The notes below the pieces were generated by a model. The model saw only the letters and a list, made by a program, of their open reading frames with translations, ran no database searches and was not told where the DNA came from. Position numbers and translations under genes: made by a program. This document shows, piece after piece, positions 227 through 62,190 of a stretch of 64,000 bases of DNA. The stretch's first letter is position 1, and every line of letters begins with the position of its first letter. Location of the stretch: the IMG/VR virus record IMGVR_UViG_3300032287_001394. The stretch is one strand, 5' to 3'. Origin of the DNA: a virus.

Positions 227-250
227 AAAGGGGCTTCGGCTCCTTTTTTT
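227..250 (+). terminator. Rho-independent terminator with UUCG tetraloop
   Basis: aaaggggc-TTCG-gctccttt followed by T-run, directly after the gp41 stop. Confidence 0.9.
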
Positions 251-257
251 ATAAATA
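250..257 (+). promoter_or_regulatory. T4-type late promoter
   Basis: TATAAATA 4 nt before ATG 262. Confidence 0.8.
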
Positions 258-3522: not shown

Positions 3523-3784
3523 AGAATACTTAGAAGAAGACAAATATAAATCAGAGACTGGTGGATTGACTCGTGCTGGTGTAGATAAGTATAATAGAGA
3601 AAATCCAGGAAGTAACTTGAAGATGGCTGTGACGACTCCTCCATCAAAGTTAGACCCTAAAGGTAAAGCCGCAGGAAGACGTAAATCGTTCTGTGCTCGT
3701 ATGGGCGGAGTTAAAGGTCCTATGAAAGACGAAAACGGTAAACCAACAAGGAAAGCATTAGCATTAAGGAAATGGAATTGTTAA
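3509..3784 (+). CDS. Small basic conserved phage protein
   Basis: RRKSFCARM...ALRKWNC motif; N-terminus MLTFKEYLEE. Confidence 0.7.
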   Translation: MLTFKEYLEEDKYKSETGGLTRAGVDKYNRENPGSNLKMAVTTPPSKLDPKGKAAGRRKSFCARMGGVKGPMKDENGKPTRKALALRKWNC

Positions 3785-4386
3785 ACTTTAAAGACTTCAT
3801 TACAGAGGACAAAGACCCACAACACCACCACGTGTTGGCTTTTGGTCGTATGAACCCTCCAACTTCTGGCCATATGGCAGTAATTAACAAAGTTCATGAT
3901 GTGGCTAAGAAGCAAGGCGCAGAACACACTGTCGTGACTTCACACAGCCATGATCCTAAGAAAAACCCATTGTCTCCTCAACAAAAGAAGAAACACCTTA
4001 AACGATTTGCACCAGGTACAAACTTTGAGTCATCATCTGCAGAACATCCAACTATCCTACATCACGCAGCAGAACTACATAAGAAAGGTGTCACACACCT
4101 ACATGTAGTAGTAGGATCAGATCGTAAGAAAGAGATGACATCCTTATTAAATAGGTATAATAATAAGAAGTCTAGTCATGGTCACTATAACTTTAAGAAG
4201 ATAACTGTACACTCTGCAGGTCAAAGAGATCCTGATTCAGAGGGTGCAAGTGGAGTATCAGGTACTAAACAAAGAGAGCATGCCCGTACTGGTAACTATG
4301 CGGCGTTCCGCAAGGGCGTACCAGAACATGTATCGCATGCACACGCTAAAGAATTGATGCACGACGTACAACATGGAAGCAAATAG
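3772..4386 (+). CDS. Cytidylyltransferase-like (HxGH-class) nucleotidyltransferase
   Basis: FGRMNPPTSGH, VVGSDR, SAGQRDPD, SGTK motifs. Confidence 0.8.
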   Translation: MELLNFKDFITEDKDPQHHHVLAFGRMNPPTSGHMAVINKVHDVAKKQGAEHTVVTSHSHDPKKNPLSPQQKKKHLKRFAPGTNFESSSAEHPTILHHAAELHKKGVTHLHVVVGSDRKKEMTSLLNRYNNKKSSHGHYNFKKITVHSAGQRDPDSEGASGVSGTKQREHARTGNYAAFRKGVPEHVSHAHAKELMHDVQHGSK

Positions 4387-20479: not shown

Positions 20480-21487
20480 ATGTTATACATTGATGCAAAA
20501 TACGTAGGTCAAATCTCCTACAAACTCCGCAACTTTAAAAAGAAGAATGACTACTATTGGAACTTTAGTTGTCCGATATGTGGTGACTCCAAGAAGAACG
20601 AACTCAAGGCTCGAGGCTTTGTCTATAAGAACCAAGACAGACTAGTCTATAAGTGTCATAACTGTGGTGTATCCACATCTATCGGCGGGTTATTAAAGCA
20701 ACTTGATCCGTTAGTCTATAATGAATATGTGTTAGAACGCTATAAAGAAAATACTTCTAAACACATGCCTCATGCTAATGTCAAAGAAGTGGTACCAGAG
20801 ATTGCACCTGAAATAAGCACTGATCTTATCAAAGCTGGTGCACAGTCTATACAATCTAATCAAGAAGCATTACAATACGTGATGTCTCGTAAGATCCCAG
20901 CTGAACGCTGGAAAGATCTATATTATGTGCCTAAGTTTAAAGAGTTTGTTAATAACCTTAAGTATACATTTCCCGATACAACATACGATGCACCAAGATT
21001 AATCATCCCATTCTTTGATGAAGACGGTAAGTGTATAGCGTTTCAAGGCAGAGCATTCGGCAAAGAGATGCCTAAGTATGTGACCATCAAGCTTAATGAG
21101 AAGAAAGAAAAGATCTATGGTCTCGATCGTATGGATCATAACAAACGAATCTATGTGACAGAAGGTCCTATCGATTCTATGTTTATCCCTAATGCTATCG
21201 CTGTCGCTGGTGCAGGGTTCGATACTAAGTTCATCGATGCTATCAAAGATAATGCTACATTGATAATGGATAACGAACCAAGGTCTAAAGAGATTACCAA
21301 GTTTATTGAAAAGCTTATAGATAATAATTACACAGTATGTCTATGGCCAGATACCATACAAGAGAAAGATATCAATGAGATGGTGTTAGCAGGAAAACCT
21401 ATAGAGTCAATCATGGATACTATAAATACAAATACCTTCCAAGGCATGGAAGCTAAATTGCAATTTACTCAATGGAGAAAGTGTTGA
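20480..21487 (+). CDS. 61: DNA primase gp61
   Basis: CPICGDS...CHNC zinc finger; EGPIDS and DNEPR TOPRIM motifs. Confidence 0.95.
   Translation: MLYIDAKYVGQISYKLRNFKKKNDYYWNFSCPICGDSKKNELKARGFVYKNQDRLVYKCHNCGVSTSIGGLLKQLDPLVYNEYVLERYKENTSKHMPHANVKEVVPEIAPEISTDLIKAGAQSIQSNQEALQYVMSRKIPAERWKDLYYVPKFKEFVNNLKYTFPDTTYDAPRLIIPFFDEDGKCIAFQGRAFGKEMPKYVTIKLNEKKEKIYGLDRMDHNKRIYVTEGPIDSMFIPNAIAVAGAGFDTKFIDAIKDNATLIMDNEPRSKEITKFIEKLIDNNYTVCLWPDTIQEKDINEMVLAGKPIESIMDTINTNTFQGMEAKLQFTQWRKC
21421..21428 (+). promoter_or_regulatory. Possible late promoter for galE
   Basis: TATAAATA inside the 3' end of primase. Confidence 0.5.
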
Positions 21488-22353
21488 AAGTATTAATCAC
21501 AGGAGTTACTGGTTATATTGGCTCTCACCTAGCAAAGGTGTTATATGAAGCAGGTCACCACATCGTAGGTCTAGATTTAGAATGGAAGAAGCATAATGAT
21601 GTAAGTAGATACTGTCATCGCATCCTTATCAAAGACGTTACAAAGCACATATGTGATGAAGACTACGATGTCATCGTCCATCTTGCTGGATTAATTCAAG
21701 TAGAAGAAAGCGTTGCGCACCCAACAAAGTATTACTCAACAAATCTTGGTGGTACTGTTAACATGTTAAGGCAGAACATTAATGGTGAACCACACTTTAT
21801 ATTTGCATCTACCGCTGGTGCATTCGATGCACAGTCACCGTATGCAAGGTCTAAGCTAGCAGCAGAAGACGTTATCAAAGAAAAATCAAAGAACTATACT
21901 ATATTTAGATTCTTTAACGTAGCAGGTTCTGATGGTATGCATAGACAAGTTGGTAGAGCATCACACTTAATTCGCATCGCTGCTGAAGCTGCAGCTGGTA
22001 AACGAGACTATATGTCAATTTATGGAGAAGACTATGATACACCAGATGGTAGTTGTGTTAGGGATTATATCCACGTTGTGGATCTTGTTAACGCTATTCG
22101 TGATACGATTAAGCATGGTGCCTTTAACACGCCATATGAATGTATTGGTTCGGGCCAAGGATACTCGGTCAAAGAAGTAGTTAAGGCCATGAAAGACGTT
22201 ACAAATCAAGACTTTACTGTAAAGATGGCCGGTCGTAGAGATGGAGATCCGGCTTCTTTAGCAATTGATAATCAATTCAATCTGTTGCATCCACAATATC
22301 AACTAAAAGATATGTGTCTGTCGGCATATAATATTGAGAACAGAAAGGTATAA
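21472..22353 (+). CDS. galE: UDP-glucose 4-epimerase
   Basis: GVTGYIG Rossmann motif, YARSK, RFFNVAG, DGSCVRDYIHVVDL; exact start uncertain. Confidence 0.9.
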   Translation: MEKVLKVLITGVTGYIGSHLAKVLYEAGHHIVGLDLEWKKHNDVSRYCHRILIKDVTKHICDEDYDVIVHLAGLIQVEESVAHPTKYYSTNLGGTVNMLRQNINGEPHFIFASTAGAFDAQSPYARSKLAAEDVIKEKSKNYTIFRFFNVAGSDGMHRQVGRASHLIRIAAEAAAGKRDYMSIYGEDYDTPDGSCVRDYIHVVDLVNAIRDTIKHGAFNTPYECIGSGQGYSVKEVVKAMKDVTNQDFTVKMAGRRDGDPASLAIDNQFNLLHPQYQLKDMCLSAYNIENRKV

Positions 22354-22783: not shown

Positions 22784-24568
22784 ATGACTGACGAAGTCCA
22801 CGGTATTAAGGTAGACTATTTACGCGACTCATTGTTCGATGAGTTAGGAATGATTAGGTTAAAAGAGTCATACATGGCAGACGGTGAAGTAAGTCCTCAA
22901 GAAAGATTTGCATTCGTATCAAGCAAATTCGCAACAGACAAATTTCATGCACAAAGATTGTACGAGTATAGCAGTAAGCATTGGTTGTCATATGCTACGC
23001 CTATCCTTTCATTTGGCAGATCCAAGCGAGGATTACCTATATCATGTTTTTTAAACTTTATTGAAGATACGGCCGAAGGCCTAGTGGAGAATTTGAGTGA
23101 GACTAATTGGTTATCTATGCTTGGGGGTGGTGTTGGTATTGGCTTTGGAATCAGGTCTGCTGATGATAAGTCTACTGGCGTTATGCCTCATCTTAAAATG
23201 TATGATGCTAGCTCTCTTGCTTATCGTCAAGGCCGTACTCGTCGCGGTAGTTATGCTGCTTACTTGGATATTTCACACCCTGACATTCTAATGTTCCTTG
23301 AGATGCGTAAGCCTACAGGTGACCAAAACATGCGTTGCTTGAACTTACATCATGGTGTAAACATTCCTGATGCATTCATGGAGATCATTGAGAACTGTAT
23401 GAAAGATCCTGAAGCTAATGATGATTGGGAATTAAGAGATCCACATTCAGGTGAATTAAGAGAAACTGTATCTGCAAAAGAACTATGGCAAAAGCTATTA
23501 GAACTACGCATGACTACAGGAGAACCATATCTGCACTTCATTGATGAGTCTAATAGAAAGATGCCTCAATGGTTAAAAGACAAAGGTTTGAAGATACATC
23601 AATCTAACCTATGTTCAGAGATTATTCTACCTACTAATGAGAAGAGGACGGCTGTATGTTGTCTATCTAGTTTAAACTTGGAGTATTATGATGATTGGAA
23701 AAATGATAAACTTTTTCTTAAAGACGTTGCAGAAATGTTGGATAATGTGTTACAATATTTTATTGACACTGCTCCTTCTAGTATTAAGCGTGCTCGTTAT
23801 TCTGCTACTCGTGAGCGGAGCATTGGGATTGGTGCTCTTGGCTGGCATGCTTTGCTTCAGCGAAAAAATACTCCCTGGGAGAGTGCAATGGCAACCGGAC
23901 TTAATAAACAAATCTTCGCGCATATTAGATCAAGCCTTGATAAAGCAAATCAACAGTTGGGTAAAGAACGAGGAGAAGCTCCAGATGCCGAAGGTACTGG
24001 AAACCGTTTTTCTCATCTTATGGCTATTGCTCCCAATGCTAGCTCTTCTATTCTTATGGGAAATACATCTCCATCTATTGAGCCATTCAGAGCTAATGCC
24101 TACCGCCAAGATACTCTATCAGGATCTCACTTACACAAGAACCAGTATTTAGATAAAATTATTAAGGAAAAAGCTAATGATAAATATGATGAGATTTGGT
24201 CTTCGATTATTGCAAATGATGGTTCAGTTCAACATCTGGATATACTTGACGATTGGACCAAAGATGTGTTCAAGACTTCTATGGAGATTGACCAACGATG
24301 GGTGGTACAACACGCAGCAGATCGTCAAGAGTACATCGACCAAGCACAAAGCTTAAATGTATTCTTTAGACCTGATAGCAATATCAAGTATGTTCATGCA
24401 GTACATTTCCAAGCATGGAAACAAAAACTAAAAACAATGTATTATTGCAGATCTGACAAGATCGCTAAGGCCGACAAAGTATCTAAACGTATTGAACGTG
24501 AAGTCATCGCTGAGATTGATTTAAAAGCAATGACCGAAGGTGAAACATGTTTAGCTTGCGAAGGTTAA
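22784..24568 (+). CDS. nrdA: Ribonucleotide reductase class Ia, alpha subunit
   Basis: ISCF, SNLCSEI, APNASSS, KTMYYCRS, C-terminal CLACEG; short form with no obvious ATP cone. Confidence 0.95.
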   Translation: MTDEVHGIKVDYLRDSLFDELGMIRLKESYMADGEVSPQERFAFVSSKFATDKFHAQRLYEYSSKHWLSYATPILSFGRSKRGLPISCFLNFIEDTAEGLVENLSETNWLSMLGGGVGIGFGIRSADDKSTGVMPHLKMYDASSLAYRQGRTRRGSYAAYLDISHPDILMFLEMRKPTGDQNMRCLNLHHGVNIPDAFMEIIENCMKDPEANDDWELRDPHSGELRETVSAKELWQKLLELRMTTGEPYLHFIDESNRKMPQWLKDKGLKIHQSNLCSEIILPTNEKRTAVCCLSSLNLEYYDDWKNDKLFLKDVAEMLDNVLQYFIDTAPSSIKRARYSATRERSIGIGALGWHALLQRKNTPWESAMATGLNKQIFAHIRSSLDKANQQLGKERGEAPDAEGTGNRFSHLMAIAPNASSSILMGNTSPSIEPFRANAYRQDTLSGSHLHKNQYLDKIIKEKANDKYDEIWSSIIANDGSVQHLDILDDWTKDVFKTSMEIDQRWVVQHAADRQEYIDQAQSLNVFFRPDSNIKYVHAVHFQAWKQKLKTMYYCRSDKIAKADKVSKRIEREVIAEIDLKAMTEGETCLACEG

Positions 24569-24582
24569 TTAAAAGGGGAAAT

Positions 24583-25329
24583 ATGAAGAAGTTATTAGTA
24601 CTAGCATTATTAGCATTTGCGTCAGTAGTATCAGCAAATGATATCGATACAAAGTGTAAGCAGCATGTAATCTATGGTGCACCAGTTAAAGTTGAAGGTA
24701 ATAACCAATACCTATGTCGTACAGCTTATGCAGTGAATTATAATTATAGTACAAAAGTTGCATTCTATGCAGTAGAACATATTACTGTACAAAACCTTAC
24801 TAAAACTGCTGCACGTAAAGATGACTTTAGAGAAGATCCAGAAGTACCTGTGCAACACAGAGCAACATTAGCAGACTATACCGGTATGGGTTTTGATCGT
24901 GGTCATGTTGCTCCTGCTGCGGATATGACGTTTGATGCTAAAGCAATGTCTGAATCATTCTATTTAACTAATATGATGCCTCAAGTTCCTGGTAATAATC
25001 GTGGAATTTGGAAATACCTTGAAGAAAATGTTAGGTATTGGGTACAAGTTAAAGGTGAAGTGTATGTGATTACTGGTACTTTATTTGAAGGTCAACCAAA
25101 GATGATGAATAAGGTAGCTATCCCATCTCATGTATATAAGATAGCGATTGATCCTAAATCTGGTAAACAAATCGCGTATCTATTCCCTAATGAAAAACTA
25201 GATCCTAAGTTAATTGATAACTATGCAGTATCTGTTGCATCTATAGAACAAAAGACAGGTATTAACTTTTCGCCGCTACTATCAAACAACACTGCAGAAA
25301 AAGCAGTATTAAAACTGAAAGACTTCTAA
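24583..25329 (+). CDS. Exported DNA/RNA non-specific endonuclease (NucA/EndoG family)
   Basis: Signal peptide MKKLLVLALLAFASVVSA; DRGH catalytic motif; FYLTNMMPQ...NRGIW; RBS AGGGG. Confidence 0.9.
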   Translation: MKKLLVLALLAFASVVSANDIDTKCKQHVIYGAPVKVEGNNQYLCRTAYAVNYNYSTKVAFYAVEHITVQNLTKTAARKDDFREDPEVPVQHRATLADYTGMGFDRGHVAPAADMTFDAKAMSESFYLTNMMPQVPGNNRGIWKYLEENVRYWVQVKGEVYVITGTLFEGQPKMMNKVAIPSHVYKIAIDPKSGKQIAYLFPNEKLDPKLIDNYAVSVASIEQKTGINFSPLLSNNTAEKAVLKLKDF

Positions 25330-26311: not shown

Positions 26312-26454
26312 TGGCAACAAAATATTTTCACTGTGAGAACTGTGAATCAACAGGTAAGGTGACCGTTAAGACTAACGACGTCACTATAGAAGATATTGTG
26401 TTTTGTCCAGTATGTGGAGCAGATATCTTTGAAGAAGACGAAGACGAAGAATGA
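26311..26454 (+). CDS. 47-aa zinc-ribbon protein (not in ORF track)
   Basis: MATKYFHCENC...FCPVCGADIFEEDEDEE; overlaps both neighbours (TAATG, ATGA). Confidence 0.8.
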   Translation: MATKYFHCENCESTGKVTVKTNDVTIEDIVFCPVCGADIFEEDEDEE

Positions 26455-26882
26455 CATGGTATTATAAAGGTGAGCCAGTTGAAGAGATTGATGAGAAATA
26501 TACAGGATTTGTATATATCATTACTAATCTGGTTACTGACAAGAAGTATATCGGAAAAAAACTTTCAAAGTTCTCTAAAACGAATGTTCGAACTATTAAG
26601 CTTAAGAATGGGACAAAGAAGAAAAAGAAGATCAGAAGTAAGGTCGAGTCGGACTGGAAGACATATTGGTCTTCATCAAAAGAAGTTATTGATGATGTCA
26701 AAATATTGGGAGAGGATAAGTTTAAACGGGAAATCCTAATGTTTTGTTTATCTAAAGGGACAGCCTCATACTTTGAGGCTAAGTTCCAAATGCAGAATGA
26801 AGTGCTTGAACATCCTGATAAGTGGTATAATGGGATAGTTAATTGTCGTGTACATAGGAGTCATATAAAATATGAAGATTAG
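26451..26882 (+). CDS. GIY-YIG endonuclease
   Basis: GFVYIITN...YIGKK, later YFE and YN. Confidence 0.85.
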   Translation: MTWYYKGEPVEEIDEKYTGFVYIITNLVTDKKYIGKKLSKFSKTNVRTIKLKNGTKKKKKIRSKVESDWKTYWSSSKEVIDDVKILGEDKFKREILMFCLSKGTASYFEAKFQMQNEVLEHPDKWYNGIVNCRVHRSHIKYED

Positions 26883-27158: not shown

Positions 27159-28139
27159 ATGAAAAGAGTATTGATCACTGGAGGTGCTGGATTCATAGCG
27201 CACCATGTAATAACATATATCTTAAACAAAACTGACTGGAACATAGTCACCTTAGATAGGTTAGATTTTTCAGGTAATTTAAACCGATTAGCTGAAGTAG
27301 TACCTAATGATGGCAGAGTAACAACTGTTTTTCATGATCTTAAAGCAGAATTAAATCCACAAATCATAAATGCAATTGGTGATATTGATATCATTTTACA
27401 TCTTGCAGCAGGTTCTCATGTAGACCGGTCTATTCAATTCCCAATGGAGTTTGTAATGGATAATGTTGTTGGTACATGTAATATTTTAAATTATGCAAGG
27501 TCATTGCCAAACTTAGAACGATTTATCTACTTTTCAACAGATGAAGTATTCGGTCCAGCTCCACAAGGTATTAACTATGGAGAATATGATCGATATAATT
27601 CATCTAACCCATACTCAGCTACCAAAGCTGGTGGAGAAGAACTCGCTGTAGCATTTGCTAATACATATGATTTACCATTATACATCACTCACACCATGAA
27701 TGTGTTTGGTGAAAGACAACATCCTGAAAAATATATTCCAGTTTGTATTAAACGCGTAAGAGATGGTGAAAAGATTACTATTCATTCAGATCCTACTAAA
27801 ACAATCCCAGGTAGTAGATATTATATTCATGCTTCTGAAGTAGCATCAGCATTATTATTCATACTTAACTTAAAAGATCAATCTAATGGATCTAAGTTTA
27901 ATGTAGTAGGTAAAGAAGAAATAAATAATCTACAGTTGGCTCAAATAATTGCTGATGTTCAAGGTAAACAACTCATCTATGAATTATCAGATTTCCATTC
28001 TGCTAGACCTGGGCACGACTTAAGGTATGCATTATCTGGAGAATATATGAGAAATCTTGGATGGGAACCACAAATATCACTAAAAGATCGAATATCTCAA
28101 GTTGTTTCTTGGACATTAGAAAACCATAGGTGGTTATGA
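27159..28139 (+). CDS. rfbB: dTDP-glucose 4,6-dehydratase
   Basis: GGAGFIA, SHVDRSI, STDEVFG, YSATK, RPGHDLRY. Confidence 0.9.
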   Translation: MKRVLITGGAGFIAHHVITYILNKTDWNIVTLDRLDFSGNLNRLAEVVPNDGRVTTVFHDLKAELNPQIINAIGDIDIILHLAAGSHVDRSIQFPMEFVMDNVVGTCNILNYARSLPNLERFIYFSTDEVFGPAPQGINYGEYDRYNSSNPYSATKAGGEELAVAFANTYDLPLYITHTMNVFGERQHPEKYIPVCIKRVRDGEKITIHSDPTKTIPGSRYYIHASEVASALLFILNLKDQSNGSKFNVVGKEEINNLQLAQIIADVQGKQLIYELSDFHSARPGHDLRYALSGEYMRNLGWEPQISLKDRISQVVSWTLENHRWL

Positions 28140-29159: not shown

Positions 29160-29167
29160 TATAAATA
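29160..29167 (+). promoter_or_regulatory. Late promoter heading the curli locus
   Basis: TATAAATA 4 nt before ATG 29172. Confidence 0.8.
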
Positions 29168-29450: not shown

Positions 29451-29719
29451 TGGAAGACTTAGCAGATTTAATTAATAAGTATGGGTTTCCCATTATTGCG
29501 GCAGGCGGGTTAGGGTACTTCGTCTACTATGTTTGGAAATGGGTAACTGAAGAAATTGACCCTGTTATAGGTGAATCTAATAAAGTTTTAATTGAACTAA
29601 TCGATCGTATCAGGATGTTAGATAACGACTTGATTAGACTCAATCAAAAAGTGAACGTCATTTTATCTTTAAGAGAGAAGGAACAAAATGAAGCTCACGA
29701 CAAGGATACTAAGTCTTAG
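29450..29719 (+). CDS. Small single-TM protein (paralog 2)
   Basis: YGFPIIA...GYFV; DRIRMLDNDLIRL mirrors DRRVAAMNHDVIRI of paralog 1. Confidence 0.75.
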   Translation: MEDLADLINKYGFPIIAAGGLGYFVYYVWKWVTEEIDPVIGESNKVLIELIDRIRMLDNDLIRLNQKVNVILSLREKEQNEAHDKDTKS

Positions 29720-30140
29720 TATTTTATTGACAGGTTTTGCTGTTCAAGCACAACCGCTCCCTGATTATACATTCAAGAGCCCATCATTTAACGGTAATGG
29801 GTACTCTGCACACGTCTTGACTATTGAGAACCAAGAACACAATCGCAGAGATGCTATTGAAAAAGAAATCCAAGCAGCTCTTGATAAAGAAAAGAACGAA
29901 GCAAAGAATACGAATATATCTAAGTTCCTTAACAACCTAGAATCCCGTATCTATGCACAGATTTCTCAAAACGTGGCGACTGCCATGTTTGCAGATGGTG
30001 GTAGTAATGCCGGCACATTAAACTTTGAAGGCAACATCATCAATTGGACAAAGAGCTCTACTGAGATAACTCTTAACGTGACTGATTATGTAGGTAGCAG
30101 CACGTCTATATCAATACCATTAGGATCATTTCAGTTCTAA
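29688..30140 (+). CDS. csgF: Curli assembly protein CsgF
   Basis: Signal peptide, YTFKSPSFNGNG N-terminal CsgF-type motif, adjacent to csgG. Confidence 0.85.
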   Translation: MKLTTRILSLSILLTGFAVQAQPLPDYTFKSPSFNGNGYSAHVLTIENQEHNRRDAIEKEIQAALDKEKNEAKNTNISKFLNNLESRIYAQISQNVATAMFADGGSNAGTLNFEGNIINWTKSSTEITLNVTDYVGSSTSISIPLGSFQF

Positions 30141-30961
30141 TGAAACATTTTTTAATAATACTATCGCTTCTAGTTTTATCTGGTTGCGCGACTTCTACAG
30201 TTATTAAAGATGTAGAGAAACCTCTCATCTCTAAAAACTTAATGCAAAAGGAATTCGACATGCTTCCTGGCCCACATGGCAAGAAGCTATCTATTGCTGT
30301 ATATAGTTTTGCTGATAAGACTGGTCAGAGAAAACCAAGTGCTAACGTAGCTCAACTATCGACGGCAGTTACACAAGGTGCTGATGCATTCCTCATCAAG
30401 GCATTACAAGATGTGGGTAAAGGTCAGTGGTTTGATGTTGTCGAACGAGTTGGCTTGGATAGTCTAACTAAAGAGCGTCAGCTGATTCGCCAAATGCGCG
30501 AAGCTTACGAGGGTGACAAAGCCAAGCCTCTATCTCCCATGATGTTTGCGGGAATTATATTAGAAGGTGGTATCGTAGGATATGATTCATCGACAAGGTC
30601 TGGTGGATCTGCGATGAGGATGTTGGGCATTGGCCCACAAACACAATATTCTGAGGATATAGTAACTATCAGCTTAAGAGCTGTTAGTGTGAATTCAGGA
30701 AAAGTTTTAGTATCAGTGACAGTGCAGAAGACGGTTTATTCTGCTGCTGACAGCTTAGCGATGTTGAAGTTCGTTAAGAATGGAACACAAGCATTTGAAT
30801 TGGAGACAGGATTAACTATCAACGAGCCAGGTACATTAGCTGTTAAAGCTGCTGTTGAGGCTGCAGTTGTTGAGCTTATTAAAGAAGGAGAGAAGAAAGG
30901 TGTATGGGAGTTCTCATATCCTTATGTCGCTCCAGAAAATAAAATAGAGGAGACAAAATAG
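30140..30961 (+). CDS. csgG: Curli secretion channel CsgG
   Basis: LSGC lipobox; AVYSFADKTGQRK, STAVTQGA, WFDVVERVGLDSLTKERQLIR, EGGIVGYD. Confidence 0.95.
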   Translation: MKHFLIILSLLVLSGCATSTVIKDVEKPLISKNLMQKEFDMLPGPHGKKLSIAVYSFADKTGQRKPSANVAQLSTAVTQGADAFLIKALQDVGKGQWFDVVERVGLDSLTKERQLIRQMREAYEGDKAKPLSPMMFAGIILEGGIVGYDSSTRSGGSAMRMLGIGPQTQYSEDIVTISLRAVSVNSGKVLVSVTVQKTVYSAADSLAMLKFVKNGTQAFELETGLTINEPGTLAVKAAVEAAVVELIKEGEKKGVWEFSYPYVAPENKIEETK

Positions 30962-31744
30962 ATGAACAACTATTTAAAGATAATGGTTGCGATGATATTT
31001 TCGGCGTCTGCATTCGCAGCAGACAATAGTATCTACATTGACCAATCAGGTGATAATTCTACTATTGATATCACTCAAACGGGTGCTGGTAACGTTATTC
31101 GTGGGATTCAAGGAGTTGGTACTGGTAATACAACGCCAGCTAAGATCTATGGTAATAATACTGCTATAGATATCCAACAAGTTGGTTCTACTAACACGTT
31201 AAACTTAGGTGTGAATACATCTACTGCAACTGGTAGAGCATACGGTATTGACTTAACATACTACGTGACTGGTAATTCTGGTACTGCTACTATTAACAGT
31301 AATAACTCTGGTACAGGTACTTCTGGATCTAACTTTATTGACGTAAGACAAACAGGCAACTCTGCAGGTATTAACTTAAATATCTTAGGTTCTAAGAATG
31401 ACTTTACTGCTGTAACATCAGGTGGTTCTGGTAATAGTATCACAGCATCAATTACTGCTGACGAGACTGTTAATAATATATCAATGACTGGTGGTGGTAG
31501 CAATACATTAACACAGACTACTACAAGTAATAAAGCAACAAACAATATTACTACACTTGGTGCAAGTAATGGTATAGTGTTAACACAGTCTGGTACAGCT
31601 GGAACTAATGGTCATGCATTTACATTAAATCTAACTGGTTCAAGTAATACATTAAACGTAACACAATCAGGTACTATTGATACCACAGTGAACTTACTTA
31701 GCAATGGTAGTGGTAATGCATGGAACATCACAACTGGAAATTAA
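30962..31744 (+). CDS. Curlin-repeat protein (CsgA/CsgB-like)
   Basis: Signal peptide then repeated N-x5-Q-x-G-x2-N units (NSIYIDQSGDNSTIDITQTGAGN). Confidence 0.8.
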   Translation: MNNYLKIMVAMIFSASAFAADNSIYIDQSGDNSTIDITQTGAGNVIRGIQGVGTGNTTPAKIYGNNTAIDIQQVGSTNTLNLGVNTSTATGRAYGIDLTYYVTGNSGTATINSNNSGTGTSGSNFIDVRQTGNSAGINLNILGSKNDFTAVTSGGSGNSITASITADETVNNISMTGGGSNTLTQTTTSNKATNNITTLGASNGIVLTQSGTAGTNGHAFTLNLTGSSNTLNVTQSGTIDTTVNLLSNGSGNAWNITTGN

Positions 31745-32835
31745 TAGTTCTACTCTTATTCGCTGTTAATTCATACGCAGCGATAGGAACTATTACTGAA
31801 CAAAGTAATACCGCTCCTAGCATATCGCGAAAGAGCGGTACACTTTCAGGCACAAAAGGTACAGGCGTTGAGATGTCTGATACCATCAAAACAACTCAAG
31901 GTAAAGTAGGTATTACCTTTGAAGATAAAACAAAAGTAGACATCACAGAAAACTCGAAGTTAGTTATCGATGAGTTCGTCTATGATCCAAATTCTAAGAA
32001 GGGCGGAAAGTTAGCCGTTAACATTGCATTAGGAACTGCACGATATGCTTCTGGTCAAATTGCGAAGAACAATCCGCAGAGCGTGGCGATTAATACTCCT
32101 ACGGCTACTGTCGCTGTCCGTGGTACAGACTTTACTGCTACTGTTGATGAGTTAGGTAGATCCACATTCATACTATTGCCTTCATGTCCAAAAGGTTGGA
32201 TTGACATAGAAAAAGACTGTAAGACTGGTAAGATCGAAGTTATTACGGATGAAGGTAAGGTTCTATTAGATAAAGCATTCCAAGCTACGAGGGTAGATTC
32301 AAAAGAAACAAGGCCATTCAAACCAGTCATCGTTAATCTGACAGAAGACATGATTAATAACCTATTGGTATTATCTCCTCCAAAAGAACTAAGAGAGACT
32401 GATAAAGATAGACAGCGAAATAGAGAATCTGCAAAGGGAGCACTTGATGTTGACTTCCTTGCAGAGAATAAACTAGTAGACGTACTAGCTAAAGAAGAGA
32501 AAGAGATGTACCAAGATAAGTTATCTCGTAACCTGTTAGATAATGACTTCCTTGCAAACGTATTAGACATCATTAATGCGCAACTAGCAGCACAACTAGA
32601 TTTACTTGGTAAGACAAAGACAGGTTTATTACCTGATTATGTACCAACTTCAGGTGTTACAGTTGAGGTCGATGATTTACAAGTTACATTATGTCGTGAG
32701 GCTGGTGGAGATACTCAATGCATTACGACTCCAAAAAACCAAAATACTACTGTGACACAGACACAAGGTCCAGTAGAAATTAAGAATAGGATTAATAACG
32801 GTGGCGGCACTACTATCAATACTACTCAGAATTAG
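31720..32835 (+). CDS. Exported FecR-domain protein
   Basis: Signal peptide; DTIKT...ITFEDKT...ENSKLVIDEFVYDP...TPTATVAVRGTDF. Confidence 0.85.
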   Translation: MEHHNWKLIVLLLFAVNSYAAIGTITEQSNTAPSISRKSGTLSGTKGTGVEMSDTIKTTQGKVGITFEDKTKVDITENSKLVIDEFVYDPNSKKGGKLAVNIALGTARYASGQIAKNNPQSVAINTPTATVAVRGTDFTATVDELGRSTFILLPSCPKGWIDIEKDCKTGKIEVITDEGKVLLDKAFQATRVDSKETRPFKPVIVNLTEDMINNLLVLSPPKELRETDKDRQRNRESAKGALDVDFLAENKLVDVLAKEEKEMYQDKLSRNLLDNDFLANVLDIINAQLAAQLDLLGKTKTGLLPDYVPTSGVTVEVDDLQVTLCREAGGDTQCITTPKNQNTTVTQTQGPVEIKNRINNGGGTTINTTQN

Positions 32836-34069
32836 TCTTGTATTCTTATTAATATTTAGTACTGTGGCTCAGGCTATAACTTACTCTCCTAATGGGACAT
32901 CAGGATTAAATCTTGTTTATAATGGTAATGATGATGATAATTCTTATACTGTCAATCTGCCTTGGTCAATTAATTTTTTAGGTACTAACTATAGTTCTGT
33001 TTATGTTGGTACAAATGGATATATCACTTTATCCTCACCTAATTCTACTTACTCAGGATTCTCTCCTTCCAATCCAGCTGGTCCACATATAAGCATATAT
33101 CCCGCAGATCGTAGACTATATAAATTGTATTATGCGCAAATAGATGCAGGTACTGCTCAAGCACGATTTGTTATCAGAGCGCAGGGTGTTGATTATTCTA
33201 ATGCCGCGGTCACCTATATATGGGAGGTTCATTTTTATCCAGGTTCATCATATTTTGATATCTACTTTGTAGATGCACCATCATCAGGCAACGCTGGAAC
33301 TACAGGTATTAGTAATGGATCTACTTATGTTTCAACGTTTACCACAACTGAATTAACAGGTATTCGTATTAATGCTAATGGAACACTTGATACCGGTGCA
33401 CCAGCGTATAGTTCATCTATCACTATTGCACAACAAGCACGTAAGAACTCTGAGACTGCTCAAAGGACATCTCAATCTGGTAATGAAATACAGATTGAGC
33501 AGATAGGTGATAATAACAACATTACGATAAGACAAGGTGTTAACGTTACTGGTAAGAATAGGATTGAGTTATACTCTAATGGTAATTATAATACGCTTAA
33601 CTTAAATCAAGGTTATACTACAACAGGAACAGTATCAATAGGAGATAGTAATAACCATTATCTTAATTTAAACTTAATAGGCAATAATAACACAGTAACA
33701 AAACAACAGACTGGTACAAATAACTTTTTAGAGACAACTATAAGTGGTAACAATAATAATGTTACTAATCTTCAACAGGGTACTAGTGGTAAGATATTAT
33801 TTCAGAGTGTGAGTGGTAATAGTAATACAGTGACTACTAATCAGAAGGATTCTGGTCAGCATTACTTGGATCTTAAGTTAACTGGGAATGGTCATAATGT
33901 AGGTGTAACTCAACAAGGAACAGGTAACCACGCTGCTACGATTGACTTGACTAATTCAGGCGGTGCAGCAACACTTAACCTTAACCAGTTAGGATCTACA
34001 AATCAGATATATAGTATACAACAAAGCTGTGTTAATGCTGCAGGCTGTTCAACAAACATTAGCCAATGA
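32801..34069 (+). CDS. Secreted protein: N-terminal globular domain plus C-terminal curlin repeats
   Basis: DDNSYTVNLPWSINFLG...VGTNGYI domain; NEIQIEQIGDNNNITIRQG-type repeats; C-terminal CVNAAGC. Confidence 0.75.
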   Translation: MAALLSILLRISLVFLLIFSTVAQAITYSPNGTSGLNLVYNGNDDDNSYTVNLPWSINFLGTNYSSVYVGTNGYITLSSPNSTYSGFSPSNPAGPHISIYPADRRLYKLYYAQIDAGTAQARFVIRAQGVDYSNAAVTYIWEVHFYPGSSYFDIYFVDAPSSGNAGTTGISNGSTYVSTFTTTELTGIRINANGTLDTGAPAYSSSITIAQQARKNSETAQRTSQSGNEIQIEQIGDNNNITIRQGVNVTGKNRIELYSNGNYNTLNLNQGYTTTGTVSIGDSNNHYLNLNLIGNNNTVTKQQTGTNNFLETTISGNNNNVTNLQQGTSGKILFQSVSGNSNTVTTNQKDSGQHYLDLKLTGNGHNVGVTQQGTGNHAATIDLTNSGGAATLNLNQLGSTNQIYSIQQSCVNAAGCSTNISQ

Positions 34070-34127
34070 TTGACCATGCCAAGATTAATGCGCCTAATGC
34101 TAATAAAAGTTCTAAAGTATATAACAT
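34059..34127 (-). CDS. 22-aa hydrophobic peptide (not in ORF track)
   Basis: Minus strand AAAGGAGAATAAC-ATG; MLYTLELLLALGALILAWSIIG*. Confidence 0.55.
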   Translation of the reverse strand: MLYTLELLLALGALILAWSIIG

Positions 34128-34207
34128 GTTATTCTCCTTTCTATATTACTTATAGGAATAATATGTGTTTCTTTATATTATGTTTTTATAAGCTTATTCC
34201 AGGAATG

Positions 34208-34215
34208 TATAAATA
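34208..34215 (+). promoter_or_regulatory. Late promoter
   Basis: TATAAATA 6 nt before ATG 34222. Confidence 0.75.
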
Positions 34216-34221
34216 AACAAA

Positions 34222-34965
34222 ATGAAAAAGTATAAAACCATTTGCATTTCCGATACACATCTTGGTTCTAAGGATGCAAAGGCTGATTTACTTAATAACT
34301 TCCTTAAGAACCATGAGTGTGATAACCTATTTTTAGTAGGCGATATCATAGATGGTTGGAAGATCCAACAGAATAAATGGAAGTGGAAGCAAAGTCATAC
34401 TAACGTTATCCGTAGGATATTAGGTTATGCTAAACGCGGAACTAAAGTTACGTATGTGACAGGTAATCATGATGAGTTTATTAGACCATTTGTTAATCAA
34501 TTTTCTCTTGGTTCTATTACTATATGCAACCAAGCAGAGTACAGAGGCATTGATGGAAATCTATTCTTAGTAACACATGGCGACATGTTTGATGGCATTA
34601 CAAGAGTTGGCAAATGGATCGGGTTTCTTGGCGATACAGCTTATGACTGTGTATTATGGATCAACACTAAGTTTAATTACATAAGACATAGGTTAGGGTT
34701 TGGTTATTGGTCGTTAAGTAAGTTTCTTAAACATCAAGTAAAGAAAGCGATAGATTTTGTATTCAAATTCGAAGAAAACCTTGCAGGATACTGCGAACGA
34801 AAAAACTTTGACGGAGTTATTTGCGGGCATATCCATACTGCATCGATTAAGTCTATCAATGGAATAATCTATATGAACGACGGAGATTGGGTAGAATCAT
34901 GTTCAGCTCTAGTAGAACATGAAGATGGTAAATGGGAAATAATTTATTGGAATAAAATAATATGA
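34222..34965 (+). CDS. plcP: PlcP-like phospholipase C (LpxH-related metallophosphoesterase)
   Basis: SDTHLG, GDIIDGW, GNHDE, HGD, YWSLSKFLK, CGHIH, NDGDWVESCSALVEH. Confidence 0.8.
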   Translation: MKKYKTICISDTHLGSKDAKADLLNNFLKNHECDNLFLVGDIIDGWKIQQNKWKWKQSHTNVIRRILGYAKRGTKVTYVTGNHDEFIRPFVNQFSLGSITICNQAEYRGIDGNLFLVTHGDMFDGITRVGKWIGFLGDTAYDCVLWINTKFNYIRHRLGFGYWSLSKFLKHQVKKAIDFVFKFEENLAGYCERKNFDGVICGHIHTASIKSINGIIYMNDGDWVESCSALVEHEDGKWEIIYWNKII

Positions 34966-35093
34966 AAGTAAAAAAATTAGTACGCAAGATGTATCTAGCA
35001 TGTGTTAGACACCAAAAGAAGAAGCAAAAGAAACTTTGGTTTAAAGCATTGAAGAAAAGTTTACAACATAAGAAGACGCAAATCATACAATGA
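34962..35093 (+). CDS. 43-aa very basic peptide (not in ORF track)
   Basis: MKVKKLVRKMYLACVRHQKKKQKKLWFK...; ATGA overlaps on both sides. Confidence 0.65.
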   Translation: MKVKKLVRKMYLACVRHQKKKQKKLWFKALKKSLQHKKTQIIQ

Positions 35094-36082
35094 AGATATT
35101 AATAGTAACAGACAATTTAAGAGATCAAGTCAATGGCGTTGTCACCACATACAAAAATATTGAGGATCATGCTGTTTCTGCTGGCCATAGTATTGTTTAT
35201 TTTGATCCCCGGCAGTTCCGTCATATTGATTGTCCTTTTTATCCTGAGGTCAAACTTTCCATTCCTTCGTACTTTATCAGTAAGATTAAGAAGATGGGTG
35301 CGGATCGCATTCACATCGCGACAGAAGGTCCGCTAGGACTATTTGCAAAGTTCTACTGTGACGCAAACAAGATACCATACACCACAGCGTATCATACTAA
35401 GTTTCCAGAATTCTTAAAAAAATTACTATGGATACCTACATCTATCACATATAGGTATCTTAAATGGTTTCACAAGTATTCTAAGGCTACACTAGTCCCT
35501 TCACAATCAATGAAAGATGAGCTAGAATCAAAAGGATTTAAAAACTTAGTTACTTGGACAAGAGGTGTATCACACGAACTAATAACTAAGAGGACTACTT
35601 CTAAAAACAATCAACCACTAAAAGTATTATACGTAGGGCGCGTATCTAAAGAAAAGAACTTAGAAGACTTATGTAAGTTACAAGATGTCTATGATATCAC
35701 TATTGTAGGTGATGGCCCAACATTAAATGATTTAATTCGCAAGTATAGAAAAGTTTATTTTACTGGATATAAGTTTGGAGAAGAGTTATCTAAGATCTAT
35801 TCTGAGAACGATGTATTTGCCTTCCCATCTTTAACAGATACATTTGGTATAGTCATCATTGAAGCAATGTGTAATGGATTGCCAGTGGCAGCATATAGAG
35901 TAACCGGTCCACAGGATATAGTCGAGTATGGAGTTACAGGATACCTAAGTATGTATGGTAATGGGTTAGATTCTTCTATAGAAAAGTGTAGGTCATTAGA
36001 TAATATTAAAGTCCAAGATCTATCTGTTAATAAGTGGACGTGGAAAAACTGTTATGATATATTCATTAACACAATAAAATAA
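35090..36082 (+). CDS. GT4 glycosyltransferase, Agt-like glycolipid synthase
   Basis: QVNGVV, IHIATEGPLG, TTAYHTKFPE, YVGRVSKEKN, FPSLTDTFGIVIIEAM. Confidence 0.85.
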   Translation: MKILIVTDNLRDQVNGVVTTYKNIEDHAVSAGHSIVYFDPRQFRHIDCPFYPEVKLSIPSYFISKIKKMGADRIHIATEGPLGLFAKFYCDANKIPYTTAYHTKFPEFLKKLLWIPTSITYRYLKWFHKYSKATLVPSQSMKDELESKGFKNLVTWTRGVSHELITKRTTSKNNQPLKVLYVGRVSKEKNLEDLCKLQDVYDITIVGDGPTLNDLIRKYRKVYFTGYKFGEELSKIYSENDVFAFPSLTDTFGIVIIEAMCNGLPVAAYRVTGPQDIVEYGVTGYLSMYGNGLDSSIEKCRSLDNIKVQDLSVNKWTWKNCYDIFINTIK

Positions 36083-36118: not shown

Positions 36119-38131
36119 ATGAAAAAAATATTACTAAGCCCATGGTTGGCTCTATTAACGTTAACATTATTAATAGCGATCAGAGTTACTGACCCATCAT
36201 TTGTAGAGTCAGTTAGACTAAGATACTTTGATACATTAATTACAAGTAAGCAACAAACTATTTCAAAACAGGTTCATGTCGTAAACATTGATGATAAGTC
36301 AATTGAACGACTAGGGCAATTCCCATTTCCAAGGACACAATATGCAAATATTATCGAAGATCTTTATGCTCGTGGCGCTGGCCTCGTTGTTTTTAATCTG
36401 TTTATGCCTGATAGTGATAGGTTTAGACAAGATGCTGGACTTGCTGATACCATCGCTAGACACCCTGTGGTCTTACCTCAGGTAGCTACATCAGACAAAC
36501 AAAAACCTGGTGCATTTAGACCAGGAGTTTCAGAGATTGGTGGTAAAGCTTCTGACTTTGCAGTAAATTATCCAGGCATTCAAGCCAATATATCATTATT
36601 TAACAGCAAAGCTGCTGGAATAGGAGTCGTAAATGTATTACCTGAAATTGATGGTGTTGTTCGTCGTATCCCTATGGTCGTTGCAAGTGAAGGCCAACTG
36701 TACCCAAGTATCAGTCTTGAAACAATGCGTGTTGCAGTCGGAGACCCAAGTTTCCAAGTTAAATCTACCGATGCAGGAATCGAAGCTGTTCGAATCCCCA
36801 AGTTCGCAAAGATTACCACTGACACCGTTGGCCGAATATGGGTCGACTGGTCGTCTAATCCAATTGAACACTCCGTTGTGGACCTCCCAAAATCATTCAA
36901 CGGAGGTATCGTCATCGTTGGGCTTACCGCTCGGGGACTTAATAACCCAGTCGCAACTGCCAGAGGTGCAATCTATCCGCATTATGTACAAGCTTCTGTA
37001 CTAGATACACTAACATCAGGCACCAGCATATCACGTCCTGACTGGGCAGATGGTGCTGAGATATTAGGATTAGTATTACTTTCTATCATATCAATTTTAT
37101 TAACAAGGTGGACATATGGATTTATTCCTGTCATTGCTATTCTCGGTGGTGTTTATTTCGGCAGTAGGTATATTTTCCAAGGACATTCGCTTTTACTGGA
37201 TGTTAGCTTTCCTATTATTGGGCTTGTGTTGGTTTACTTACACAGCTATACAGTTAAGTTCCTTAGCGAGTTAAGCCAGAAGTTACAGATCAAGAAACAG
37301 TTTGGTTCTTATGTAAGTCCTATCATCGTTGAACGTTTACAAAAAAATCCAGATCTTATTAAACTAGGTGGTGAAGAGAAGATGCTGACCGCAGTCATGA
37401 CTGACATGCGTAACTTTACTGGACTTGGCGAGAAGTATGGTGCAGACGTAGAAGGTTTTACTGCTATCATGAACCAATACATGACAGCGATCGCTCAACC
37501 GGTATTTAAGAATGATGGATGTTTAATTAAGTTTATTGGTGATGCATCACTACATATTCATGGTGCTCCGTTAGATGATGATAAACATGCATATCATGCA
37601 GTTAAGACGACGCTTGAAATGATTGAAGCAGTCGAAGAGTTTAATAAGCATTTAGAATCTATTGGCAAACCTCCTGTCGGTATGGGTGCTGGTGTCAATA
37701 CAGGTAAGATCTTAGTAGGTAACATCGGATCTGAAGGTAAGATGGGCTATGACGTGTTAGGTGATCCTGTCTCAGTAGCTGCACGATTAGAGAGTCAAAC
37801 AAAATCATATGGCGTATTGATGATCCTTGGTCCTGATACAGCTGAAGCAGTTAAAGATGACTTTGATGTCGTATGGTTAGATAACATCGCTGTTAAAGGT
37901 AAGACAGTTGGATTAGACATCTACACAGTCGGTAAGACTATCAAACATAAACATGAAGAGTATAAGAAAGAGTATACTCGCGGTAATTGGAAACGTGCCA
38001 CAGAATGGGCATTAGAACTCATCGACGATAAAGACGTCACCATCAAAGACTATTATCATAAGATGATAGAGAGAATGAATCAAGGTCTCCCAGCTAACTG
38101 GGATGGCACTTATCACGCTACCTCTAAGTAG
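36119..38131 (+). CDS. CHASE2-domain class III adenylate cyclase
   Basis: TM, CHASE2 (VNIDDKSI..LGQFPFPR, DGVVRRIP), 3 TM, cyclase domain (TDMRNFT, KFIGDA, YDVLGD..SVAARLE, VKGK). Confidence 0.9.
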   Translation: MKKILLSPWLALLTLTLLIAIRVTDPSFVESVRLRYFDTLITSKQQTISKQVHVVNIDDKSIERLGQFPFPRTQYANIIEDLYARGAGLVVFNLFMPDSDRFRQDAGLADTIARHPVVLPQVATSDKQKPGAFRPGVSEIGGKASDFAVNYPGIQANISLFNSKAAGIGVVNVLPEIDGVVRRIPMVVASEGQLYPSISLETMRVAVGDPSFQVKSTDAGIEAVRIPKFAKITTDTVGRIWVDWSSNPIEHSVVDLPKSFNGGIVIVGLTARGLNNPVATARGAIYPHYVQASVLDTLTSGTSISRPDWADGAEILGLVLLSIISILLTRWTYGFIPVIAILGGVYFGSRYIFQGHSLLLDVSFPIIGLVLVYLHSYTVKFLSELSQKLQIKKQFGSYVSPIIVERLQKNPDLIKLGGEEKMLTAVMTDMRNFTGLGEKYGADVEGFTAIMNQYMTAIAQPVFKNDGCLIKFIGDASLHIHGAPLDDDKHAYHAVKTTLEMIEAVEEFNKHLESIGKPPVGMGAGVNTGKILVGNIGSEGKMGYDVLGDPVSVAARLESQTKSYGVLMILGPDTAEAVKDDFDVVWLDNIAVKGKTVGLDIYTVGKTIKHKHEEYKKEYTRGNWKRATEWALELIDDKDVTIKDYYHKMIERMNQGLPANWDGTYHATSK

Positions 38132-53901: not shown

Positions 53902-53909
53902 TATTTATA
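53902..53909 (-). promoter_or_regulatory. Late promoter (minus strand)
   Basis: tatttata = TATAAATA on the minus strand, upstream of gene 2. Confidence 0.75.
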
Positions 53910-62182: not shown

Positions 62183-62190
62183 TATAAATA
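62183..62190 (+). promoter_or_regulatory. Late promoter
   Basis: TATAAATA 4 nt before ATG 62195. Confidence 0.8.

What the first reader, a model, noticed from the sequence alone, without database searches (positions are those of the whole stretch)
34208..36082. Phage-encoded plcP-agt-like membrane lipid remodelling cassette
Seen: late promoter, a metallophosphoesterase with YWSLS and NDGDWVESC motifs, a short basic ORF and a GT4 with QVNGVV/HIATEGPLG/YHTKFPE, all translationally coupled. Known: this gene pair matches PlcP phospholipase C plus Agt glycosyltransferase, which aquatic heterotrophs use under phosphate starvation to convert phospholipid to DAG and then phosphorus-free glycolipid. 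Inference: the phage may mine host membrane phosphorus for DNA synthesis or change membrane properties. Automated annotation would probably hide this as 'UDP-2,3-diacylglucosamine hydrolase'.
Basis: partly seen in the sequence, partly recalled or inferred. Interest (0 to 1): 0.8.

Follow-up and report, generated by a model that had tools for sequence, protein, structure and literature searches.

The report
Phage-encoded PlcP-Agt membrane lipid swap genes
An uncultured T4-like aquatic phage carries, behind its own late promoter, the two bacterial enzymes that cut the phosphate head off membrane phospholipids and put a sugar in its place. A small phage-only protein sits between them, so the phage probably rewrites its host's membrane lipids during infection.

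Summary
At 34208-36082 a TATAAATA late-promoter motif is followed by three ORFs joined by ATGA overlaps: a 247-aa metallophosphoesterase, a 43-aa basic ORF and a 330-aa GT4 glycosyltransferase. The window is an uncultured pelagimyophage/Melnitz-type T4-like phage.

The phosphoesterase is not LpxH. It scores 30-39 bits against LpxH models whose cut-offs are 134 and 190 bits, has GNHD where LpxH has GNRD, and falls with the second, PlcP-type paralogue in trees (100* split).

The glycosyltransferase keeps every residue shown by mutagenesis to be essential in the SAR11 Agt enzyme GTcp, including the Asp in FPSxTDTFG. Full-length homologues lie just downstream of the PlcP homologue in 54 of 80 bacterial loci.

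New here:
- The phage PlcP belongs to a clade seen only in viral contigs (at least 592 IMG/VR contigs carry a relative). No genome searched exceeds 57% identity.
- The 43-aa ORF is a conserved gene under purifying selection, linked to plcP only in phages.
- There is no Pho box; expression looks phage-programmed.

Enzyme activity and the benefit to the phage (phosphorus salvage or envelope change) remain inferred. No paper in the library describes phage plcP. Other windows of this scan noted the same pair on other phage DNA.

The parts
34208..34215 (+). TATAAATA, T4-type late promoter motif 6 nt upstream of the plcP start codon
   Evidence: 12 of 13 copies in the window lie within 60 nt upstream of a same-strand ORF start, against 6.8% of positions.
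34222..34965 (+). plcP-like metallophosphoesterase, 247 aa (PlcP family, LpxH-like fold with a helical lid)
   Evidence: Pfam Metallophos. LpxH models score 30-39 bits against cut-offs of 190 and 134. Invariant D11, H13, D41, N82-H83-D84, H119, H203, H205. GNHD where LpxH has GNRD. Trees. AF2 model pLDDT 84.9, best PDB fold LpxH at TM about 0.57 and 17-20% identity.
34962..35093 (+). 43-aa strongly basic ORF, overlapping plcP and agt by ATGA at both ends; member of a phage-only small-protein family linked to plcP
   Evidence: 43-aa or 52-aa homologues lie directly beside plcP, on either side, in 18 viral loci and in none of about 118 bacterial loci. dN/dS is about 0.04-0.15 where dS is not saturated. 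No Pfam, PHROG or Atlas match.
35090..36082 (+). agt-like GT4 glycosyltransferase, 330 aa (Agt/GTcp-type diacylglycerol glycosyltransferase)
   Evidence: Pfam GT4/GT1 domains. Motifs GRVSKEKN and FPSLTDTFG. G16, L56, G80, G83, H102, R158, R184, K189, D250, T251, F252, G253, E258 and W318 match the residues tested in GTcp. Homologues lie downstream of plcP in 54 of 80 bacterial loci. Tree.

Best explanation
This is a phage-borne version of the bacterial PlcP-Agt lipid-renovation pathway. It is transcribed from a phage late promoter as one translationally coupled unit (plcP, small basic protein, agt). The proposed steps are all inferred from homology. First, PlcP, a Mn-dependent phospholipase-C-type metallophosphoesterase with an LpxH-like fold and helical lid, removes the phospho-head group from host PE or PG and leaves diacylglycerol. 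Second, Agt transfers glucose or glucuronic acid from a UDP-sugar to that diacylglycerol, making phosphorus-free glycolipids (MGDG/GADG), so the membrane stays intact while its phosphorus is released into the infected cell. Third, the conserved 43-aa basic protein is a phage-specific accessory of PlcP whose role is unknown. The most likely benefit is phosphorus salvage for phage nucleic acid synthesis in P-poor water. The enzyme assignment is well supported; the benefit is the weakest step.
For: The protein is not LpxH. It scores 30 and 39 bits against curated cut-offs of 190 and 134. Five bacterial genomes each hold a true LpxH (239-336 bits) plus a separate paralogue that scores 30-41 bits, like the window's protein. 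LpxH and the PlcP family are split by a 100* branch. GNHD, GDIIDGW, YWSLS and CGHIH replace the LpxH motifs GNRD, GDFFExW and HGHTHRP. All metal-binding residues are intact. The fold is LpxH-like with a lid. The window's PlcP is 45-57% identical to bacterial PlcP-family proteins, the same range as between characterised PlcPs (51% for OB3b against HTCC7211, PMC9239053). In Agt, every residue whose mutation abolished GTcp activity is conserved, including the Asp that replaces the usual GT4 Glu and the DAG-contact residues His, Arg and Trp. The plcP-then-agt gene order is the published 'type 2' operon (PMC4796936) and was found in 54 of 80 bacterial loci. The pair recurs in relatives of this phage in the same position (L002-L005) and in 24 of 80 further viral loci. 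Linkage to phosphate genes in other phages: pstS lies next to plcP in Mosig and in L133.
Against: No activity or lipid data exist for any phage copy. I could not align directly to the characterised proteins (MED193_17359, PB7211_983, SMc00171, Atu2297, WP_008545403.1), because none was reachable with the tools. No Pho box lies upstream: the best match is 9 of 14 positions, no better than background. A late promoter is odd timing for feeding DNA replication. In 51 of 75 related viral loci with room for it, plcP has no agt within 5 kb, so glycolipid synthesis is not essential to what phages gain from PlcP. The window holds no pstS. The host is unknown.
Confidence: 0.72

Rival explanations
1. The enzymology is the same, but the benefit is envelope remodelling rather than phosphorus supply. 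Late in infection the phage changes membrane lipid composition to exclude superinfecting phages, to support the neighbouring curli/FecR/CHASE2 envelope machinery, or to prime the membrane for lysis.
For: The pair sits inside the envelope-related hypervariable island: CsgF, CsgG, curlin-like proteins and FecR upstream, CHASE2 cyclase downstream. It has a late promoter and no Pho box. Published work links membrane lipid composition to phage attachment (PMC9938194 and PMC9804370, listed). The pelagimyophage paper reads glycosyltransferases in this region as surface modifiers (PMC7029224).
Against: PlcP and Agt act on inner-membrane glycerolipids, not on the exposed LPS. Most related phages carry plcP away from any curli or cyclase genes. 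plcP is adjacent to pstS in two other phages.
Confidence: 0.2
2. It is what the databases say: an LpxH lipid A enzyme plus an LPS glycosyltransferase that modify host lipopolysaccharide.
For: Source annotations read 'UDP-2,3-diacylglucosamine pyrophosphatase LpxH' and 'glycosyltransferase involved in cell wall biosynthesis'. The nearest solved fold is LpxH.
Against: The protein is far below both LpxH equivalog cut-offs. It has GNHD, not GNRD. It is separated from true LpxH by a 100* branch and sits with the second paralogue that coexists with LpxH in the same genomes. phmmer finds no PDB LpxH at E<=0.01. The GT carries the Agt-specific Asp and the DAG-contact residues.
Confidence: 0.02
3. The phosphoesterase is a cyclic-nucleotide or other soluble phosphodiesterase working with the adjacent CHASE2 adenylate/guanylate cyclase, and the GT4 glycosylates a non-lipid acceptor.
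For: The cyclase gene starts 36 nt after agt. Some metallophosphoesterases, such as Rv0805 and GpdQ, are cNMP or glycerophosphodiesterases and appear as weaker fold matches.
Against: The protein has the lid insertion and the PlcP family motifs. Most viral plcP loci have no cyclase nearby. Melnitz and HTVC008M have the cyclase but gave no plcP match.
Confidence: 0.04

Closest known systems
Bacterial PlcP-Agt lipid-renovation operon ('type 2' arrangement; Phaeobacter sp. MED193 and SAR11 HTCC7211, PMC4796936; Methylosinus trichosporium OB3b, PMC9239053; GTcp, bioRxiv 10.1101/2021.03.25.437072)
   Same: Same two protein families in the same order and strand. The metal-binding and PlcP family motifs are intact. 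All mutationally defined Agt residues are present. Identity to bacterial members (45-57% PlcP, 35-54% Agt) is as high as between characterised members.
   Different: It is encoded by a lytic T4-like phage. It sits behind a phage late promoter with no Pho box, rather than under PhoB control. A phage-only 43-aa gene is inserted between the two genes. PlcP belongs to a clade found only in viral contigs. Agt belongs to a clade of viral contigs and unplaced environmental proteins whose nearest cellular relatives are streamlined Methylophilaceae-like genomes (53-54%).
LpxH (UDP-2,3-diacylglucosamine pyrophosphatase), e.g. PDB 6PIB, 5B49, 5K8K
   Same: Calcineurin-like metallophosphoesterase core with a helical lid that holds acyl chains. 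It is the best structural match (TM about 0.57).
   Different: Only 17-20% identity, sub-threshold on LpxH models, GNHD instead of GNRD, a 12-residue insertion after the HGD motif, and a separate paralogue in genomes that have LpxH.
Phage phosphate-stress auxiliary genes (pstS, phoH, phoA, mazG of cyanomyophages and pelagimyophages)
   Same: A host-derived metabolic gene carried by T4-like aquatic phages of streamlined hosts. In Mosig and L133 plcP lies beside pstS.
   Different: It acts on the cell's own membrane phosphorus store rather than on uptake. Here it is not linked to pstS and has no Pho box.
plcP-like genes of isolated phages Pelagibacter phage Mosig EXVC030M (MT647606) and Synechococcus phage S-SRM01 (MW015081)
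   Same: Same family (47% and 36% identity), both deposited as UDP-2,3-diacylglucosamine hydrolase or diphosphatase.
   Different: Neither has an adjacent agt or the small basic ORF. Mosig's copy lies outside the viral clade that holds the window's.

Membership tests
PlcP (phospholipase-C-type metallophosphoesterase of lipid remodelling) | Calcineurin-like metallophosphoesterase metal-binding motifs intact (DxH, GD, GNHD/E, HGD, GHxH) | tested here: met
   D11, H13, G40-D41, N82-H83-D84, H119-G120-D121 and G202-H203-I204-H205 are invariant in 27 family members. Pfam Metallophos E=5.8e-12.
PlcP (phospholipase-C-type metallophosphoesterase of lipid remodelling) | Groups with the PlcP-type paralogue and apart from LpxH | tested here: met
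   A 100* split separates LpxH from all PlcP-family rows. Five genomes hold both paralogues. The window's protein has GNHD, YWSLS and GDWVES, not the LpxH motifs.
PlcP (phospholipase-C-type metallophosphoesterase of lipid remodelling) | Gene immediately upstream of a DAG glycosyltransferase (agt) on the same strand | tested here: met
   The same arrangement occurs in 54 of 80 bacterial loci and in low-GC small alphaproteobacterial genomes.
PlcP (phospholipase-C-type metallophosphoesterase of lipid remodelling) | Direct similarity to an experimentally characterised PlcP (MED193_17359/EAQ46983, PB7211_983, SMc00171, PA3219), e.g. BLASTP E<1e-40 as used by Sebastian et al. | not testable with these tools
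   None of these sequences could be fetched.
PlcP (phospholipase-C-type metallophosphoesterase of lipid remodelling) | Mn-dependent release of DAG from PE or PG | not testable with these tools
   This is biochemistry; no data exist for any phage copy.
PlcP-Agt system as a Pho-regulon operon | PhoB binding site (Pho box) upstream | tested here: not met
   The best match to CTGTCAT-N4-CTGTCAT in 33900-34230 is 9 of 14; 52 sites in the window score 10 or more. A TATAAATA late promoter is present instead.
Agt / GTcp clade of GT4 (diacylglycerol glucosyl/glucuronosyl transferase) | GT-B GT4 domains | tested here: met
   Glyco_transf_4 1.4e-14 and Glycos_transf_1 4.5e-22.
Agt / GTcp clade of GT4 (diacylglycerol glucosyl/glucuronosyl transferase) | UDP-sugar motifs GRVAxEKN and FPSxTDTFG, with Asp (not Glu) as the catalytic carboxylate, and the catalytic His | tested here: met
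   GRVSKEKN (one A-to-S change), FPSLTDTFG, H102 and D250.
Agt / GTcp clade of GT4 (diacylglycerol glucosyl/glucuronosyl transferase) | Residues whose mutation inactivates GTcp, including DAG contacts His104, Arg163 and Trp320 | tested here: met
   G16, G80, G83, H102, R158, R184, K189, D250, T251, F252, G253, E258 and W318 are all present and conserved across about 100 homologues. Correspondence was set by family alignment and motif, not by alignment to GTcp itself.
Agt / GTcp clade of GT4 (diacylglycerol glucosyl/glucuronosyl transferase) | Falls in one clade with characterised Agt (Atu2297, PB7211_960) | tested here: inconclusive
   The window's Agt lies in a clade of viral contigs and unplaced environmental proteins (99*). 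That clade is sister to the clade of plcP-linked bacterial Agt homologues. The characterised sequences themselves were not available.
LpxH (UDP-2,3-diacylglucosamine diphosphatase) | Reaches the curated equivalog score of NF003743 / TIGR01854 | tested here: not met
   39.1 bits against 134, and 30.1 bits against 190.35. True LpxH scores 239-336 bits.
LpxH (UDP-2,3-diacylglucosamine diphosphatase) | GNRD motif | tested here: not met
   The window has GNHD; all 5 true LpxH have GNRD.

The most novel reading that the evidence does not exclude
Aquatic T4-like and larger phages maintain their own long-evolved lineage of PlcP, seen here only in viral contigs and accompanied by a phage-only 43/52-aa basic partner protein. 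They fire it from late promoters independently of the host Pho regulon. If so, phages strip phosphorus from host membranes as a routine part of infection. A sizeable share of the environmental 'PlcP' and 'viral lpxH' signal, including signal used as a marker of bacterial P stress, would then be viral.
Probability: 0.3. Interest if true: 0.75.

Novelty: new variant of a known kind. Interest (0 to 1): 0.62.

Why it matters
Lipid renovation by PlcP-Agt is a major way that marine and freshwater heterotrophs lower their phosphorus quota, and plcP abundance or transcription is proposed as a field marker of P limitation (PMC4796936, PMC9239053). If phages carry and express the pathway, three things follow. 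Infection itself can convert membrane phospholipid into phosphorus for virion DNA and change the lipid make-up of infected cells. Part of the metagenomic PlcP signal would be viral. Viral AMG surveys that list 'lpxH' under LPS biosynthesis (PMC10653327, PMC9611531) would be misreading a phosphorus gene. The phage-only small protein gives a handle on how PlcP is controlled or targeted.

Tried and rejected
- The search for related loci on genome contigs with the single protein found nothing.
Several clusters have contigs of nearly the same length (about 343-346 kb), and IMG/VR holds plcP contigs of 219-332 kb. That suggests large phages but is not shown.
- I tried to pin the donor or host. Samples of 401 Alphaproteobacteria, 401 Burkholderiales-order and 401 Gammaproteobacteria genomes gave at most 53%, at most 54%, and no match at E<=1e-90 for PlcP. 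SAR11-like small low-GC genomes have the operon but at 45-48%. I rejected my first assumption that the 68-98% environmental homologues were SAR11. They cluster with, and in one case are identical to, IMG/VR viral proteins.
- Complex prediction of PlcP with the 43-aa protein returned no verdict; it is not used as evidence either way.
- The protein Atlas gave no usable hit for the 43-aa protein.
- The small ORFs next to plcP in S-SRM01 and Mosig are unrelated to it.
- phmmer of PlcP against PDB sequences found nothing; only the fold search linked it to LpxH.
- A Pho box was sought and not found.
- Genome G248, flagged unpublished, is one of 139 matching genomes in that tally.

Full report
**What is there.**
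On the + strand, a 152-nt intergenic region ends in TATAAATA (34208-34215), 6 nt before the ATG of a 247-aa ORF (34222-34965). That ORF's stop overlaps the ATG of a 43-aa ORF (34962-35093). The stop of the 43-aa ORF in turn overlaps the ATG of a 330-aa ORF (35090-36082). Both junctions read ATGA. Pfam calls the first ORF a calcineurin-like metallophosphoesterase and the third a GT4/GT1 glycosyltransferase; the small ORF matches nothing.

**Phage context.**
The window is a T4-like phage.
- It encodes a gp5-type baseplate hub/lysozyme, tail proteins, RNR large and small subunits, a primase, a SegE-type homing endonuclease and a CsgF/CsgG curli secretion pair.
- No nucleotide match exists among deposited phages.
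- The downstream CHASE2 cyclase is 40% identical to that of Methylophilales phage Melnitz and 35% to Pelagibacter phage HTVC008M.
- The cassette lies in the variable island between the replication and structural modules, the region described for pelagimyophages (PMC7029224). That paper does not mention a phospholipase.

**The promoter.**
TATAAATA occurs 13 times against 9.8 expected, which alone means nothing. But 12 of the 13 copies lie within 60 nt upstream of a same-strand ORF start, where only 6.8% of positions do. The motif therefore behaves as a genuine late promoter, and plcP has one. No Pho box is present: the best match is 9 of 14 positions, at background level. No terminator-like site on the + strand separates the three genes from each other or from the cyclase.

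**PlcP, not LpxH.**
- The 247-aa protein scores 39 and 30 bits on the two NCBIfam LpxH equivalog models, whose cut-offs are 134 and 190 bits.
- In five bacterial genomes that hold a homologue of it, a true LpxH (239-336 bits) lies elsewhere. The homologue scores 30-41 bits, like the window's protein.
- In trees, LpxH and the PlcP-type family are separated by a 100* branch.
- In alignment, all five LpxH have GNRD, GDFFExW and HGHTHRP. The window's protein and all PlcP-type proteins have GNHD, GDIIDGW, a 12-residue insertion after HGD, YWSLS, CGHIH and GDWVES.
- Metal-binding residues are invariant.
- An AlphaFold model (pLDDT 84.9) has the phosphoesterase sandwich plus two long lid helices (residues 120-193, modelled with lower confidence). 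Its best PDB matches are all LpxH, at 17-20% identity and TM about 0.57. The fold family is therefore shared, which explains the usual annotation.

**Agt.**
The 330-aa protein has GRVSKEKN and FPSLTDTFG. These are the two UDP-sugar motifs reported for GTcp, the biochemically characterised SAR11 HTCC7211 enzyme, and they include the Asp that replaces the canonical GT4 Glu and cannot be swapped for Glu. By family alignment, every residue whose mutation inactivated GTcp has its counterpart: G16, G80, G83, H102, R158, R184, K189, D250, T251, F252, G253, E258 and W318. The dimer residue L56 is also present.

**The pair.**
In 54 of 80 bacterial loci found with the PlcP alignment, a full-length homologue of the window's GT (34-46% identity) lies downstream of the PlcP homologue, in nearly all cases directly adjacent on the same strand. 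The same holds in small, low-GC alphaproteobacterial genomes. This is the published 'type 2' plcP-agt arrangement (PMC4796936).

**A viral lineage.**
The best 80 are 66-96% identical to the window's.
- Against this, the best bacterial genome match is 57%. Samples of 401 Alphaproteobacteria, 401 Burkholderiales-order and 401 Gammaproteobacteria genomes gave at most 53%, at most 54%, and nothing at E<=1e-90. These are samples; closer cellular relatives are not excluded.
- In the tree, the window sits in a 43-row clade (99*) of 37 viral contigs and 6 unplaced environmental proteins, one of which is identical to a viral one. No cellular genome is in it. Phage Mosig and one MAG are sister to it. 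In that run, rows L206 and L210 were mislabelled 'vir'; they are cellular.
- The Agt tree likewise puts all viral copies in one clade (99*). The nearest cellular relatives of the window's subclade are a Methylophilaceae protein cluster (53%) and a 1.3-Mb, 38-39% G+C Burkholderiales-order genome (54%). Together with the Melnitz similarity and the window's 37% G+C, this makes a streamlined methylotroph a host lead, no more.
- Only 24 of the 80 viral loci have agt within 5 kb, and 51 have room but lack it. PlcP is therefore the core phage gene and Agt an addition.
- Direct relatives of this phage (L002-L005) keep FecR, a curlin-like gene, plcP, agt and the cyclase in the same order. Three of them lack the small ORF.

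**The small ORF.**
It is a real gene. Homologues of exactly 43 aa lie just downstream of plcP in nine loci, including loci without agt. A related 51-52-aa form lies next to plcP in eight more, just upstream in all but one. An HMM finds it in 18 viral loci and in none of about 118 bacterial loci. Where dS is not saturated, dN/dS is 0.04-0.15. Tyr11, Ala13, Cys14 and His17 and several lysines are nearly invariant. Its function is unknown; I propose that it is an accessory of PlcP.

**Literature.**
No paper in the searched library links plcP to a phage. Viral AMG surveys list 'lpxH' under LPS biosynthesis in surface oligotrophic water and in Lake Baikal viral transcripts. Earlier notes of this scan report the same pair on other phage genomes.

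**Verdict.**
The enzymatic assignment is strong for an in-silico case. The benefit to the phage is inferred: phosphorus salvage is favoured, and envelope remodelling is the main rival.

Noticed in passing
window 250-257, 29160-29167, 34208-34215, 62183-62190 (+) and 53902-53909 (-): Five TATAAATA late-promoter motifs end only 4-6 nt before the start codon of the gene they precede. That leaves no room for a leader or ribosome-binding site if transcription starts where it does in T4. These may be leaderless late mRNAs, or the promoter geometry may differ.
   Followed up: partly
window 29688-34069 and 36119-38131: An envelope island surrounds the cassette. It holds CsgF (29688-30140), CsgG (30140-30961), a curlin-repeat protein (30962-31744), a FecR-domain protein (31720-32835), a 422-aa Asn/Thr-rich repeat protein with a signal-like N-terminus (32801-34069), and then a CHASE2 adenylate/guanylate cyclase. 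plcP-agt looks like an insertion between FecR/curlin and the cyclase; Melnitz and HTVC008M have the cyclase but gave no plcP match.
   Followed up: partly
window 21472-22353 and 27159-28139: Two NAD-dependent sugar epimerase/dehydratase genes lie in the nucleotide-metabolism module. They could supply or interconvert the UDP-sugars used by Agt, or serve LPS modification.
   Followed up: no
window 24547-25329 and 26451-26882: A non-specific DNA/RNA endonuclease (Endonuclease_NS) lies between nrdA and nrdB, and a SegE-type GIY-YIG homing endonuclease lies just after nrdB.
   Followed up: no
L001 (Mosig, MT647606) 5903-7738; L133 5001-6428: In two other phages, plcP lies next to a pstS phosphate-binding protein gene: divergently in Mosig, directly downstream in L133. 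This is independent support for a phosphorus role.
   Followed up: partly
protein clusters of P0046 and P0193; IMG/VR contigs L136, L161, L172: PlcP and Agt homologues sit on metagenome contigs of nearly identical length (about 343-346 kb) and on IMG/VR contigs of 219, 250 and 332 kb. This suggests that jumbo phages also carry the genes.
   Followed up: no
L211 (Synechococcus phage S-SRM01, MW015081) 3495-4199: A freshwater cyanophage carries a PlcP-family gene (36% identity) near its psbA region, although cyanobacteria are reported to lack plcP largely (PMC4796936).
   Followed up: no
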